Positions 1 through 3,080 of a stretch of 11,416 nucleotides of DNA are shown piece by piece. The stretch is taken from positions 1 to 11,416 of the IMG/VR virus record IMGVR_UViG_2541047168_000023. One strand, written 5' to 3'. Source of the DNA: a virus. Lineage: Duplodnaviria; Heunggongvirae; Uroviricota; Caudoviricetes. The position numbers and the translations under genes were made by a program. The notes beneath the pieces are model-generated. The model was not told where the DNA came from, made no database searches, and saw nothing but the letters and a program-made list of their open reading frames with translations. Within the stretch, counting starts at the first letter, position 1; the number at the start of each line of letters is the position of its first letter.

Positions 1-174
1 CAACTCCGGGAGCCGTGATTATGGCATTCAGGCTCTGCTAAAAATGCCAGATAACATTCCGGCCTCCCCTGATTCAGGTTATAAATGACACAATATCTTG
101 ACAACACCCGTCACTGTCTGTCAGAAAATATACCGCCAGGCATAAGTATCATGTGAAATCCAACTATCCTTCTG

Positions 175-217
175 AGCCAGCACCTCTCCACCGAAAGTCA
201 GTGCTGGCTGTTTTTTT
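175..217 (+). terminator. Candidate intrinsic terminator: 9-bp stem, long loop, T-run
   Basis: AGCCAGCAC (175-183) pairs with GTGCTGGCT (201-209), followed by G + TTTTTTT (211-217). The 17-nt loop is longer than typical, which lowers confidence. No ORF of 60 aa or more lies upstream in the window. Confidence 0.3.
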
Positions 218-423
218 CCTTAATAAAGCATCTGTAACTGGTTGTTGTTCTGCGGGTTCTGTTCTTCGTTGACATGAGGTTGCCCCGTATTCAGTGTCGC
301 TGATTTGTATTGTCTGAAGTTGTTTTTACGTTAAGTTGATGCAGATCAATTAATACGATACCTGCGTCATAATTAATTATTTGACGTGGTTTGATGGCGT
401 AGATGCACGTTGTGACATGTAGA

Positions 424-438
424 TGATAATTATTATCA
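424..438. promoter_or_regulatory. Perfect 7-1-7 inverted repeat TGATAAT-T-ATTATCA (Fur-box-like)
   Basis: Read directly: TGATAAT (424-430), T (431), ATTATCA (432-438), inside an AT-rich stretch about 40 bp upstream of cosN. It matches the 7-1-7 description of Fur boxes (TGATAATnATTATCA); function is unknown. Confidence 0.3.
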
Positions 439-474
439 TTTTGCGGGTCCTTTCCGGCGATCCGACAGGTTACG

Positions 475-486
475 GGGCGGCGACCT
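475..486. other. cosN: cosN 12-nt cohesive-end sequence (lambda-type cos site)
   Basis: GGGCGGCGACCT at 475-486, preceded by CGACAGGTTACG and followed by CGCGGGTTTTCGCTATTTATGAAAATTTTCCGG. From recollection this matches the phage lambda cos junction (right end ...CAGGTTACG, left end GGGCGGCGACCTCGCGGG...). The small terminase gene starts about 185 bp downstream, as in lambda. Confidence 0.85.
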
Positions 487-520
487 CGCGGGTTTTCGCT
501 ATTTATGAAAATTTTCCGGG

Positions 521-632
521 ATCCATGTCCGGTTTCTCTTCAAGTTAACTATATGAAAAATATAAAAACAGGTCTTCTGTGAACCGGACATGAACAAAAA
601 ACAGACATGTAAACCGGACATGACCGGTTTTG
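521..632 (+). promoter_or_regulatory. cosB: Putative cosB: three copies of ATGTCCGGTT flanking an AT-rich IHF-like segment
   Basis: ATGTCCGGTT at 525-534 (+ orientation) and its reverse complement AACCGGACAT at 582-591 and 612-621. An AT-rich stretch (about 545-570, TATATGAAAAATATAAAAACAGG) lies between the first and second copies. This mirrors lambda cosB (R3, I1, R2, R1, with R3 inverted), but the repeat sequence differs from what I recall of the lambda R sites. Confidence 0.5.
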
Positions 633-669: not shown

Positions 670-1179
670 GTGGCTACGCAGACTGAAGTTGCCAGGCATT
701 TAAGTCTGACCGATCGCCAGCTTCGCAGATTGCAGAAATTGCCGGGTGCCCCGATATCGAATAAGCGAGGGCAACTGGATCTGGATGCCTGGCGCGATTT
801 TTACATATCGTATCTGAGGAGAAGTAAAAACGATGTGCCTGATGGCGATAGCGAAGACGACTATGAGGAGAAATTGCTTATTGCCAGATGGGAACTGACA
901 GCAGAACAGGCTGTTACACAGCAGTTAAAAAATGAGGTGTCAAAAGGAAAACTGATTGACACCGGGTTCTGTATTTTTGCCCTCAGTAAGCTGGCAATGG
1001 CGTTATCCAGTACGCTTGATTCCATCCCTTTATCCATGCAGCGACAGTTTCCTGATTTAACACCGCGCCATCTTGACCATCTGAAAACCCTTATTGCTAA
1101 GGGGGCAAATCAGTGTGCGCGGGCAGGGGATAAATTACCGGATTTACTTGATGAATATATCAGAGCAACAACTGAATAA
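670..1179 (+). CDS. Nu1: Terminase small subunit (Nu1 family)
   Basis: 169-aa ORF from GTG 670, immediately after cos and overlapping the start of A. The C-terminal half resembles lambda Nu1 as I recall it (FCxFxLS..., PLSxQRxFP, LxEYI). The N-terminal region (TQTEVARHLSLTDRQLRRLQ) is HTH-like but unlike lambda Nu1. Confidence 0.85.
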   Translation: MATQTEVARHLSLTDRQLRRLQKLPGAPISNKRGQLDLDAWRDFYISYLRRSKNDVPDGDSEDDYEEKLLIARWELTAEQAVTQQLKNEVSKGKLIDTGFCIFALSKLAMALSSTLDSIPLSMQRQFPDLTPRHLDHLKTLIAKGANQCARAGDKLPDLLDEYIRATTE

Positions 1180-3080
1180 TATGATGAGCGCTGTCACAAC
1201 TGCATTACAGCCCCTGATAAGGGCATTGCCGGTGACGCCAGTTGAATGGGCTGATCAAAATTATTATCTGCCTAAAGAATCTTCATATGGTGAGGGCGAA
1301 TGGAAAACGCTGCCATTCCAGATCGCCATCATGAACAGTATGGGGAATGATCAGATCCGCACTGTTAATCTGATTAAATCTGCCCGTGTTGGCTATACAA
1401 AGATGTTGCTGGGGGGGGGGCGGGTATTTTATTGAGCATAAATCCCGAAACAGTCTGCTTTTTCAGCCCACGGATTCTGCCGCTGAAGATTTTATGAAGT
1501 CTCACGTGGAGGCGACGATTCGGAACGTGCCATGCCTGAAAGACCTTTCCCCATGGCTGGGTCGTAAACATCGTGACAATACTCTCACGCTGAAACGCTT
1601 TTCATCGGGCGTCGGTTTCTGGTGCCTGGGCGGCGCTGCCGCCAAAAACTACCGTGAAAAATCCGTTGACGTGGTCTGCTATGACGAACTTTCCTCGTTC
1701 GAGCCGGATGTCGAAAAAGAGGGCTCGCCAACCCTGCTGGGGGATAAGCGTATTGAGGGGTCGGTGTGGCCAAAATCCATTCGCGGCTCGACGCCTAAAA
1801 TCAAAGGCACCTGCCAGATCGAAAAAGCCGCTAACGAGTCGGCGCATTTTATGCGTTTTTATGTGCCCTGCCCGCACTGTGGGGAGGCGCAGTATCTGAA
1901 ATTTGGCGATGAGTCCACGCCTTTTGGGCTTAAATGGGAGAAGGACAGCCCTGAAAGTGTTTTCTACCTCTGTGAACATCATGGCTGCGTGATCCATCAG
2001 TCTGAACTGGACCAGAGCAACGGGCGGTGGATCTGTGAAAACACGGGCATGTGGACCCGTGACGGTCTGACGTTTTTCAGCGCCCGGGGTGATGAAATTC
2101 CGCCGCCGCGCTCCATCATGTTCCATATCTGGACGGCGTACAGTCCGTTCACCACCTGGGTACAGATTGTCTATGACTGGCTGGATGCACTGAAAGATCC
2201 CAACGGCCTGAAAACCTTTGTGAACACCACGCTGGGCGAGACCTGGGAAGAGGCCGTGGGCGAAAAACTCGATCACCAGGTACTGATGGATAAGGTGGTG
2301 CGTTACACGGCGGCGGTGCCTGCCCGGGTGGTTTATCTGACGGCGGGCATTGACTCGCAGCGAAACCGTTTTGAGATGTATGTCTGGGGATGGGCTCCGG
2401 GAGAGGAAGCCTTTCTGGTGGATAAAATCATCATTATGGGGCGTCCTGATGAGGAAGAGACGCTGTTACGTGTGGATGCGGCGATCAACAAAAAATACCG
2501 CCATGCGGATGGCACCGAAATGACTATTTCCCGTGTCTGCTGGGACACCGGGGGGATCGATGGTGAAATTGTTTATCAGAGATCAAAAAAACACGGTGTT
2601 TTCCGGGTGCTGCCGGTAAAAGGCGCATCTGTCTATGGCAAGCCGGTGATCACCATGCCAAAAACCCGCAATCAGCGGGGCGTGTATCTGTGTGAAGTGG
2701 GAACGGACACCGCAAAAGAAATTCTCTATGCCCGTATGAAAGCCGATCCCTCGCCTGCGGATGAAGCCACGTCGTATGCCATCCGTTTTCCTGATGATCC
2801 GGAGATTTTTTCGCAGACAGAGGCGCAGCAACTGGTGGCGGAAGAGCTGGTGGAGAAGTGGGAAAAAGGAAAGATGCGTCTGCTGTGGGATAACAAAAAG
2901 CGGCGTAACGAAGCGCTGGACTGCCTGGTGTATGCCTACGCGGCATTACGTGTGTCCGTGCAACGCTGGCAGCTTGATCTGGCTGTACTGGCAAAATCCC
3001 GGGAAGAAGAGACGACCCGGCCAACCCTGAAAGAACTGGCAGCGAAGCTGTCCGGAGGAGTGAATGGTTACAGTCGCTGA
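1151..3080 (+). pseudogene. A: Terminase large subunit (gpA homolog), frame interrupted at a G10 tract (real frameshift or homopolymer error)
   Basis: Two ORFs in different frames (1094-1435 and 1386-3080) together give a full-length gpA homolog. The likely start is ATG 1151 (MNISEQQL..., compare lambda MNISNSQV...). The frames switch at GGGGGGGGGG (1411-1420); removing one G gives ...GYTKMLLGGGGYFIEHK..., collinear with lambda ...GYSKMLLGVYAYFIEHK... Downstream motifs are conserved (KNYREKSVDV, FVNTTLGETWE, KRRNEALDC). Confidence 0.8.

What the first reader, a model, noticed from the sequence alone, without database searches (positions are those of the whole stretch)
424..438. Perfect Fur-box-like 7-1-7 palindrome just upstream of cos
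TGATAAT-T-ATTATCA is a perfect 15-bp inverted repeat that coincides with the 7-1-7 Fur recognition motif. It lies in a non-coding AT-rich region between a terminator-like hairpin and cosN, where lambda cosQ would be expected. It could be a binding site for a dimeric regulator (iron-dependent control of a nearby transcript) or part of the packaging-termination signal. A single 7-1-7 unit is weaker evidence than a full 19-bp Fur box.
Basis: seen in the sequence. Interest (0 to 1): 0.35.

Follow-up and report, generated by a model that had tools for sequence, protein, structure and literature searches.

The report
Fur iron-repressor site beside phage cosQ
The palindrome is a real, strongly conserved binding site for the host iron-sensing repressor Fur that sits 6 bp upstream of the packaging-termination site cosQ in lambda-like phages. 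The same site is already published as the "nohA/nohB Fur box" of E. coli K-12 cryptic prophages, so the finding is correct but not new, and what the site does for the phage is still unknown.

Summary
TGATAATTATTATCA is at window 424-438 as described. The window is a lambda/434-type cos region of an E. coli O157-type prophage. cosQ (GGGTCCT) is at 445-451 and the cosN nick follows 474, so the palindrome lies 6 bp upstream of cosQ and is not cosQ.

The same 15-mer occupies the same place in the K-12 prophage DLP12, and the lambda variant (centre C) in Qin. These are the published nohB and nohA Fur sites: 25.3 and 22.3 bits, Fur titration, and a gel shift for nohA (PMC2189734). Fur ChIP-exo peaks, seen only in iron-replete cells, lie on the homologous boxes of a CFT073 prophage and of Sakai Sp15.

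Among 139 cos sites, 14 of 20 unrelated upstream-flank families keep the box 4-8 bp from cosQ. The arms are nearly invariant, while the centre base and spacer vary. Six families lack it, including two isolated phages (IdasGreatGrand, MStein-2023a), so it is not needed for packaging.

Fur binding is well supported. The regulatory output is unresolved: terminase genes rise 2-4-fold in delta-fur CFT073 and Sakai but not in K-12. Verdict: already known, modest interest.

The parts
424..438 (.). Core Fur operator: perfect 7-1-7 palindrome TGATAAT-T-ATTATCA
   Evidence: Identical to the DLP12 site at NC_000913.3 580594-580608, which is the published nohB Fur site.
419..443 (.). Extended Fur site, GTAGAT GATAAT T ATTATC ATTTTG. 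Outer partial hexamers on both sides give 15/19 and 16/19 matches to the 19-bp Fur consensus in the two registers.
   Evidence: Conservation that was not selected for is seen at -6 T, -5 G, -3 A, -2 A and in the T-run spacer across flank families. Chen et al. report clusters of 3-4 overlapping Fur sites in 25-28 bp here.
412..439 (+). Sigma-70 promoter-like match (-35 GTGACA 412-417, 16-nt spacer, -10 TATCAT 434-439) overlapped by the Fur box. Not shown to be active.
   Evidence: 10 of 12 matches. The match is not conserved: lambda has TATCAC, a 7-bp insertion disrupts it in one subfamily, and it is absent in phi80-type flanks. The identical DLP12 sequence gives no nohD derepression in delta-fur MG1655.
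439..444 (.). T-rich spacer TTTTGC between the box and cosQ. It varies in length (spacing 4-8 bp) and sequence between phages but always begins with a T-run.
445..451 (+). cosQ (GGGTCCT), the packaging-termination subsite
   Evidence: The cosQ misc_feature in the phage 434 record OL657226 maps to these bases. It is invariant in all 32 distinct lambda/434-family sequences.
475..486 (+). 12-nt cohesive-end sequence GGGCGGCGACCT within cosN. The top-strand nick falls between 474 and 475.
   Evidence: Linear phage records (lambda J02459, 434) end at the base that corresponds to window 474.
524..622 (.). cosB-like region with three CCGGACATG-type repeats: 524-535 inverted, 582-592 and 611-622 direct. 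They are presumed TerS binding sites of a non-lambda packaging specificity.
   Evidence: D1, D6, I5, I11
670..1179 (+). Small terminase subunit gene (169 aa)
   Evidence: annotated as terminase small subunit, WP_000235436.1
1151..3080 (+). Large terminase subunit gene, frameshifted at a run of 10 G (1411-1420)
   Evidence: The RefSeq annotation of strain 350 marks it 'frameshifted'.

Best explanation
The palindrome is the core of a high-affinity operator for the host ferric uptake regulator Fur. Fe2+-Fur dimers bind it when iron is sufficient; there are probably two dimers, on overlapping 7-1-7 units offset by 6 bp that together span about 419-443. The operator forms the conserved left edge of the lambdoid cos module, 6 bp upstream of cosQ, but it is not cosQ and packaging does not require it. 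My best guess for its function, which is inferred and not shown, is that bound Fur occludes the -10-like hexamers built into the box and blocks the DNA. This would limit transcription from the AT-rich region upstream across cos into the terminase and head genes while the phage is a prophage in iron-replete cells. Leftward transcription into the accessory-gene region may be limited in the same way. Fur binding is shown by published experiments on identical or homologous sequences. The regulatory consequence and any benefit to the phage are inferred. The confidence of 0.6 is for the whole statement: about 0.9 that it is a Fur operator, and about 0.4-0.5 for the transcription-damping function.
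For: (1) Sequence: a perfect 7-1-7, with 15/19 and 16/19 matches to the 19-bp Fur box.
(2) Identity with known sites: the DLP12 box at NC_000913.3 580594-580608 is the same 15-mer with the same flanks, and the Qin box at 1636593-1636607 is the lambda variant. After the v2-to-v3 coordinate shift these are exactly the sites Chen et al. 2007 list as nohB (25.3 bits, third strongest row of their Table 4; cited to reference 1, which I take to be the Stojiljkovic 1994 Fur titration study) and nohA (22.3 bits; gel shift with 150 nM Fur; recovered on a fragment selected in vivo for Fur binding) (PMC2189734).
(3) In vivo occupancy: ChIP-exo Fur peaks, found only under iron-replete conditions, lie on the homologous box of a CFT073 prophage (peak 1424699-1424711, box 1424694-1424708). 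They also lie on the box of Sakai Sp15 (peak centre about 2 bp from the box centre after a +123 coordinate calibration). A ChIP-seq summit at 1634625 in MG1655 lies on the Qin box (PMC3688515).
(4) Selection: 14 of 20 unrelated upstream-flank families and many cosB types keep the box 4-8 bp from cosQ. Homology to PhiR12-type phages starts exactly at base 424. Within the lambda/434 family the arms vary in 4 of 14 columns (3 sequences). The centre base differs in 9 of 32 sequences, the spacer in 5 of 7 columns and the upstream 50 nt in 20 of 50 columns. This is the pattern expected for a dimeric protein with an unconstrained central base.
(5) Output: terminase and head genes downstream of the box are listed as Fur-regulon members, with log2 delta-fur/WT of +1.05 to +2.13 in Sakai and CFT073.
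Against: No experiment was done on this window, and no binding data exist for lambda itself in the papers I could read. In MG1655 no ChIP-exo peak is listed at DLP12 or Qin, although repeat mappability may explain this. nohD and nohA are not derepressed in delta-fur MG1655, even though DLP12 carries the same box and the same promoter-like match as the window. In W3110 the neighbouring genes go down, not up, in delta-fur. The rises in CFT073 and Sakai are small, and genes upstream of cos (rzpQ, ECs2976) also rise about 2-fold. Increased spontaneous prophage induction in delta-fur cells could therefore explain them. The + strand promoter-like match is not conserved among box-bearing phages. Six of 20 flank families lack the box and have no replacement Fur box within -500 to +300. 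Any function is thus dispensable.
Confidence: 0.6

Rival explanations
1. Linked passenger. The box is a genuine Fur-binding sequence but has no function for the phage. It persists because it lies within 4-8 bp of the indispensable cosQ, so recombination rarely separates the two.
For: Six of 20 flank families, including the isolated phages IdasGreatGrand and Enterobacter MStein-2023a, have cosQ and cosN without the box and without a substitute. No consistent expression phenotype is seen across strains.
Against: Linkage does not explain the pattern within the box. The arms are almost invariant while the central base and the 6-bp spacer, which is even closer to cosQ, vary freely. The left boundary of homology falls at or just before the box in at least 14 unrelated flanks.
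Confidence: 0.2
2. Packaging accessory site. Fur bound at the box, or terminase itself, acts just upstream of cosQ as a speed bump or DNA-bending element. This would help the translocating terminase recognise cosQ and cosN at the end of packaging, in the way IHF at site I1 assists initiation.
For: The box is always immediately upstream of cosQ, on the side from which the packaging motor arrives, and it travels with the cosQ-cosN module whatever the cosB or TerS type. The cos fragments described in PMC4856287 (lambda 48442/48446 onward) include the box at lambda 48452-48466, so those constructs do not exclude a role for it.
Against: Phages with Nu1-type TerS and the same cosQ-cosN lack the box. 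Spacing to cosQ varies from 4 to 8 bp. In the abstract of Wieczorek and Feiss 2001, which I recall from memory and could not open, cosQ is a 7-bp element with strict spacing to cosN. The accessible Feiss-lab papers name only cosQ, cosN and I2 as termination requirements.
Confidence: 0.1
3. Fur decoy. During lytic replication, hundreds of phage genome copies, each with a very strong Fur site, titrate Fur and derepress host iron uptake. This would supply iron-dependent enzymes such as ribonucleotide reductase.
For: According to Chen et al., the homologous nohA site was recovered on a fragment selected in vivo for Fur binding, and the nohB site is cited to a Fur titration study. From my own recollection, not checked here, those assays put the fragment on multicopy plasmids. 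The site ranks among the strongest predicted in the E. coli genome.
Against: There are no data on this. From general knowledge, Fur is abundant (thousands of molecules per cell), so a few hundred sites may not titrate it. The idea does not explain why the box must adjoin cosQ.
Confidence: 0.05
4. The palindrome is the site of another dimeric regulator, or it acts as an RNA or DNA hairpin such as a terminator.
For: It is an AT-rich perfect palindrome. An FNR ChIP-seq peak was reported at the Qin copy.
Against: The half-site spacing (TGAT-N7-ATCA) does not fit FNR (TTGAT-N4-ATCAA, from my own knowledge). The authors themselves list the site as Fur-repressed. The RNA fold of 405-460 is not better than shuffles (z = -1.4), and a 1-nt loop cannot form. 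The only Rfam match is a sub-threshold PrrF hit (21 bits against a gathering score of 90).
Confidence: 0.03

Closest known systems
Fur sites upstream of nohB/nohD (DLP12) and nohA (Qin) in E. coli K-12 (Stojiljkovic 1994; Vassinova and Kozyrev 2000; Chen et al. 2007, PMC2189734)
   Same: The DLP12 box has the same 15-mer and the same flanks, and lies at the same distance from cosQ, cosN and the terS homologue. The Qin box is the lambda variant with centre C. The window's site is another copy of this element.
   Different: The window's copy sits in an O157-type prophage with a different cosB and TerS and a full, though frameshifted, head-gene set. The K-12 papers treat the site as a promoter-region Fur box of a 'packaging gene'. 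In the texts I could read they do not mention cos, cosQ or lambda.
Fur box of the stx1 promoter in Stx1-converting lambdoid phages
   Same: It is also a phage-borne Fur operator, and it is occupied in vivo in Sakai Sp15. ChIP-exo peak P91 lies on a 15/19 box upstream of stx1A. The same prophage also carries the cos-adjacent box.
   Different: The stx1 box overlaps a defined promoter of a lysogenic-conversion gene with a known iron response. The cos-adjacent box has no verified promoter or target.
cosQ of phage lambda (7-bp packaging-termination site)
   Same: It is the immediate neighbour of the box (6 bp away) and is co-inherited with it as one module in most lambdoid cos regions.
   Different: cosQ is GGGTCCT, is invariant, and is present in every cos found here. 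The box is absent from 6 of 20 flank families, and its spacing to cosQ is variable.
IHF site I1 in lambda cosB
   Same: It is a binding site for a host DNA-binding protein embedded in the cos region.
   Different: According to the Feiss-lab papers read here, I1 lies between R3 and R2 on the other side of cosN, where an IHF-induced DNA bend is described. No packaging role is known for the Fur box.

Membership tests
Fur operator (E. coli Fur box) | Sequence match to the 19-bp consensus GATAATGATAATCATTATC or to the 7-1-7 unit TGATAATnATTATCA | tested here: met
   A perfect 7-1-7 at 424-438, with 15/19 at 419-437 and 16/19 at 425-443. The identical DLP12 sequence scores 25.3 bits in the 24-site information model of Chen et al..
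Fur operator (E. coli Fur box) | Binding of purified Fur in vitro | not testable with these tools
   Published for the Qin/nohA copy, which differs from the window only at the unconstrained centre base and in flanking bases: a gel shift with 150 nM Fur (PMC2189734). Not done for the window's exact oligo.
Fur operator (E. coli Fur box) | Iron-dependent occupancy by Fur in vivo | not testable with these tools
   Published ChIP-exo peaks, iron-replete only, lie on homologous boxes in CFT073 and Sakai Sp15. I verified the positions here. No peak is listed for DLP12 or Qin in MG1655.
Fur operator (E. coli Fur box) | Fur- or iron-dependent change in expression of an adjacent transcription unit | tested here: inconclusive
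   Published RNA-seq tables show +1.05 to +2.13 log2 for terminase and head genes in delta-fur Sakai and CFT073. There is no change for nohD and nohA in MG1655, and neighbouring genes decrease in W3110. Prophage induction is a possible confounder.
lambda cosQ (packaging-termination subsite) | The 7-bp sequence GGGTCCT about 17 bp upstream of cosN | tested here: not met
   GGGTCCT is at 445-451. The palindrome at 424-438 does not overlap it.
lambda cosQ (packaging-termination subsite) | Present in all functional lambda-type cos sites, at fixed spacing | tested here: not met
   The box is absent from 6 of 20 flank families, including two isolated phages. Its spacing to cosQ is 4-8 bp.
Sigma-70 promoter with overlapping operator | Conserved -35 and -10 hexamers at 16-18 bp spacing, and a mapped transcription start | tested here: inconclusive
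   There is a 10/12 match on the + strand in the window. It is not conserved in lambda (TATCAC), in phi80-type flanks, or in a subfamily with a 7-bp insertion. No start-site data were available.
Intrinsic terminator or structured RNA | A stable stem-loop that folds better than shuffled sequence, or an Rfam match | tested here: not met
   z = -1.4. There is no terminator call at this position. The only Rfam match is a sub-threshold PrrF hit.

The most novel reading that the evidence does not exclude
Fur is a previously unrecognised host accessory factor of lambdoid DNA packaging. Fe-Fur bound 6 bp upstream of cosQ would slow or reposition the incoming terminase motor, or bend the DNA, so that cosQ and cosN are recognised. 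This would couple packaging termination or processivity to the iron status of the host. The 30-year-old 'nohB Fur box' would then be a packaging element rather than a transcriptional operator.
Probability: 0.08. Interest if true: 0.7.

Novelty: already known. Interest (0 to 1): 0.3.

Why it matters
The site is one of the strongest predicted Fur sites in E. coli. It is carried by lambda itself and by most lambda-type cos modules, yet its purpose has never been explained. The 'nohA/nohB Fur box' is the conserved left edge of the lambdoid cos module, 6 bp from cosQ. It shows a dimer-type constraint pattern and has been lost repeatedly. If Fur really limits leakage into the terminase genes, whose product would cut the prophage's own cos, or tunes packaging, phage maturation would be tied to host iron status. 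That would matter for Stx phages in the iron-limited gut. If the box is only a linked passenger, it is a caution for regulon studies, because strong and occupied sites need not regulate anything.

Tried and rejected
- I could not open Wieczorek and Feiss 2001 or Cue and Feiss 1993. Statements about the 7-bp cosQ and its spacing therefore rest on my memory of the abstracts and on the cosQ annotation in the 434 record.
- The I2 element turned out to lie between cosN and cosB, not upstream of cosQ, so it is irrelevant here.
- Full-text searches linking 'Fur box' to terminase, cos site or prophage found no paper that makes the connection.
- Searches on ylcI and ynfO gave nothing useful.
- Beauchene 2015 does not mention these genes in its text, and its supplements are not held.
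- The genome-contig scan returned few enteric hits and many copies of lambda DNA in non-enteric assemblies, so it added little diversity.
- Three Sakai ChIP-exo peaks that I checked as candidates (P28, P34, P50) are not at cos sites.
- The hairpin or terminator reading is rejected, and the Rfam PrrF hit is rejected as sub-threshold.
- A relocated Fur box in box-less phages was looked for and not found.
- I did not build my own Fur weight matrix, because the published 24-site model had already scored these exact sequences.

Full report
**Observation.** Window 424-438 reads TGATAATTATTATCA, a perfect 7-1-7 inverted repeat. It is the only match in the 11.4-kb window to TGATAATNATTATCA at up to two mismatches, against 0.01 expected. 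Palindromy by itself is not remarkable: four perfect 7-1-7 palindromes of any sequence occur in the window against 0.7 expected. With its flanks the site matches the classical 19-bp Fur box at 15/19 (419-437) and 16/19 (425-443, reverse register, using the T-run that follows). These are the two best scores in the window.

**Context.** Window 240-519 is 99-100% identical to the right end and cos of phage 434 and relatives, and 92-96% identical to lambda.
- Linear phage records end at the base that corresponds to window 474, so the top-strand cosN nick follows 474 and the cohesive end is 475-486.
- The cosQ feature annotated in the 434 record maps to GGGTCCT at 445-451. The palindrome thus lies 6 bp upstream of cosQ, at lambda 48452-48466, where lambda reads TGATAATCATTATCA, also a perfect palindrome. 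It is not at the cosQ position.
- Downstream lie a non-lambda cosB with three CCGGACATG repeats, a 169-aa TerS gene, and a TerL gene frameshifted in a run of 10 G.
- The whole window is 100% identical to a prophage of E. coli strain 350 and of O157:H7 strains.

**Identity with known Fur sites.** The K-12 cryptic prophages carry the same structure. DLP12 has the identical 15-mer at NC_000913.3 580594-580608, 233 bp upstream of nohD. Qin has the lambda variant at 1636593-1636607, 233 bp upstream of nohA. Both lie 6 bp from GGGTCCT.
- Chen et al. 2007 (PMC2189734) list Fur-site clusters at 579824 (nohB, 25.3 bits, third strongest row of Table 4; cited to their reference 1, which I take to be the Stojiljkovic 1994 Fur titration study) and at 1634624 (nohA, 22.3 bits).
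- The nohA site was gel-shifted by 150 nM Fur and was originally recovered on a fragment selected in vivo for Fur binding.
- The shift between genome versions (+778, and +1976/7) puts these coordinates exactly on the two palindrome centres.
- A ChIP-seq summit at 1634625 is also reported, in a table of Fur-repressed operons (PMC3688515).

**In vivo occupancy in other prophages.** In the Fur pan-regulon study (PMC10164565), CFT073 peak P53 (1424699-1424711, iron-replete only) lies on the homologous box TGATAATTATTCTCG (1424694-1424708), 5 bp from cosQ of a prophage. Sakai peak P90 (2918933-2918945 in NC_002695.1, iron-replete only) lies between the terS and Rz genes of the Stx1 prophage Sp15. 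I calibrated the offset between record versions on the stx1 Fur box (+123). After that correction, the peak centre falls within 2 bp of the centre of TGATAACCATTATCA.

**Conservation.** I scanned public collections for the cosQ-to-cosN pattern GGGTCCTTTC-N5-ATCC-N5-GTTACGGG. This gave 139 sites with full flanks, falling into 20 upstream-flank families and 16 cosB families.
- Fourteen flank families carry a match of 3 or fewer mismatches to the 14 specified positions, 4-8 bp upstream of cosQ, although the sequence further upstream is unrelated. This group includes phi80, N15, HK225, Stx1 phages, a Citrobacter prophage and others.
- Homology between the window and PhiR12-type phages begins exactly at base 424.
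- In a family-weighted profile the arms carry 1.2-2 bits per position, the centre is C or T in equal proportion, and position 15 is A or G. Unselected conservation extends to TGyAAn on the left and a T-run on the right. This fits two overlapping Fur units.
- In an unfiltered alignment of 32 distinct lambda/434-family sequences, the arms vary in 4 of 14 columns (three sequences). The centre differs in 9 sequences, the spacer varies in 5 of 7 columns and the upstream 50 nt in 20 of 50 columns. cosQ does not vary at all.
- This is the footprint of a dimeric protein with a free central base, not of simple linkage to cosQ.

**Dispensability.** Six flank families lack the box, with 6 or more mismatches. 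They include the isolated phages IdasGreatGrand and Enterobacter MStein-2023a. Most of the box-less sites examined are followed by a full-length Nu1-type TerS gene, and none has a relocated Fur box within -500 to +300. Together with the variable spacing to cosQ, this argues against an essential role in packaging termination.

**Function.** Fur binding is well supported; the output is not.
- A + strand promoter-like match (GTGACA, 16 nt, TATCAT at 412-439) is overlapped by the box. It is not conserved among box-bearing phages.
- The identical DLP12 arrangement shows no derepression of nohD in delta-fur MG1655. In W3110 the neighbouring genes fall rather than rise.
- In Sakai and CFT073 the terminase and head genes downstream of the box are listed as Fur-regulon members (log2 +1.05 to +2.13). 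Two genes just upstream of the CFT073 box also rise (+2.3 and +2.9).
- Other prophage genes upstream of cos rise about 2-fold as well, so increased spontaneous induction in delta-fur cells is a live alternative.
- My best estimate is that the site is a Fur operator (about 0.9). It most likely damps transcription across cos into the terminase genes in iron-replete lysogens (about 0.4-0.5). The rivals are a functionless linked passenger (0.2), a packaging accessory (0.1) and a Fur decoy (0.05).

**Comparison and novelty.** The element is another copy of the published nohA/nohB Fur box, so it is already known as a Fur site. In the open literature I could search, I found no statement that this box is the neighbour of cosQ, that lambda itself carries it, or that it is the conserved left edge of the lambdoid cos module. 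That placement is a modest addition. It makes the long-unexplained 'Fur-regulated packaging gene' directly testable with box-scrambled phages.

Noticed in passing
window 1411-1420 (within terL, 1151-3080): A run of 10 G splits the large terminase reading frame (ORFs 1094..1435 and 1386..3080). RefSeq marks the gene 'frameshifted' in strain 350. The prophage's own terminase is therefore probably inactive unless the run slips, or the frameshift is a homopolymer sequencing error.
   Followed up: partly
window 1-275; locus L160 1-3500: Homology to 434 and lambda stops at window 240, inside the ylcI/ynfO (DUF3950) gene. Only about 12 N-terminal codons remain (ORF 198-275, minus strand). Upstream in strain 350 the holin, lysozyme and lysis genes lie on the opposite strand, and a partial ylcI sits next to an IS1203. 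This points to an inversion or rearrangement between prophages.
   Followed up: partly
window 175-217: A hairpin (AGCCAGCAC ...
   Followed up: no
window 524-535, 582-592, 611-622: The three cosB repeats (CCGGACATG core) have the cosN-proximal copy inverted relative to the other two. This differs from the lambda arrangement, where R2 is the inverted one. An AT-rich stretch lies between the first and second copies, where an IHF site would be expected.
   Followed up: no
window 424 (junction): Megablast homology to PhiR12-type phages, which share this TerS and TerL, begins exactly at the first base of the palindrome. The box marks a mosaic recombination boundary.
   Followed up: yes
loci L017-L022, L026, L027, L030, L031, L034-L037: Assemblies of unrelated organisms contain the lambda-type cosQ-cosN pattern, often at contig ends or on very low-coverage contigs. 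They include Chromatiales and Nanosynbacter MAGs, Kitasatospora, Oceanobacillus, Veillonella, Shewanella, Raphidiopsis, Archangium and Alicyclobacillus. In at least L017 and L018 the sequence is identical to lambda, and L036 matches phi80. This is most likely contamination with lambda or cloning-vector DNA.
   Followed up: no
K-12 W3110 DLP12 and Qin (published table, PMC10164565 Dataset 3): In W3110, but not in MG1655, ylcI, ybcW, ybcV, nohD, ynfO and ydfO all fall 4- to 30-fold in delta-fur, at low read counts. This is the opposite of derepression. It could reflect Fur acting against silencing of this AT-rich region, or a strain artefact.
   Followed up: no
NC_004431.1 1423654-1423980 (locus L015 1-281): The CFT073 prophage that carries the ChIP-exo-occupied box encodes a TonB-family protein about 700 bp upstream of it. 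This is an iron-uptake-related accessory gene near a Fur site.
   Followed up: no
window 1250-1268: A second Fur-like 19-mer (GCTGATCAAAATTATTATC, 14/19) lies inside the terL coding region. It is probably chance.
   Followed up: no
window 412-540: A sub-threshold Rfam match to PrrF, a Fur-regulated Pseudomonas sRNA (21 bits against a gathering score of 90, E = 0.69). I treated it as noise.
   Followed up: yes
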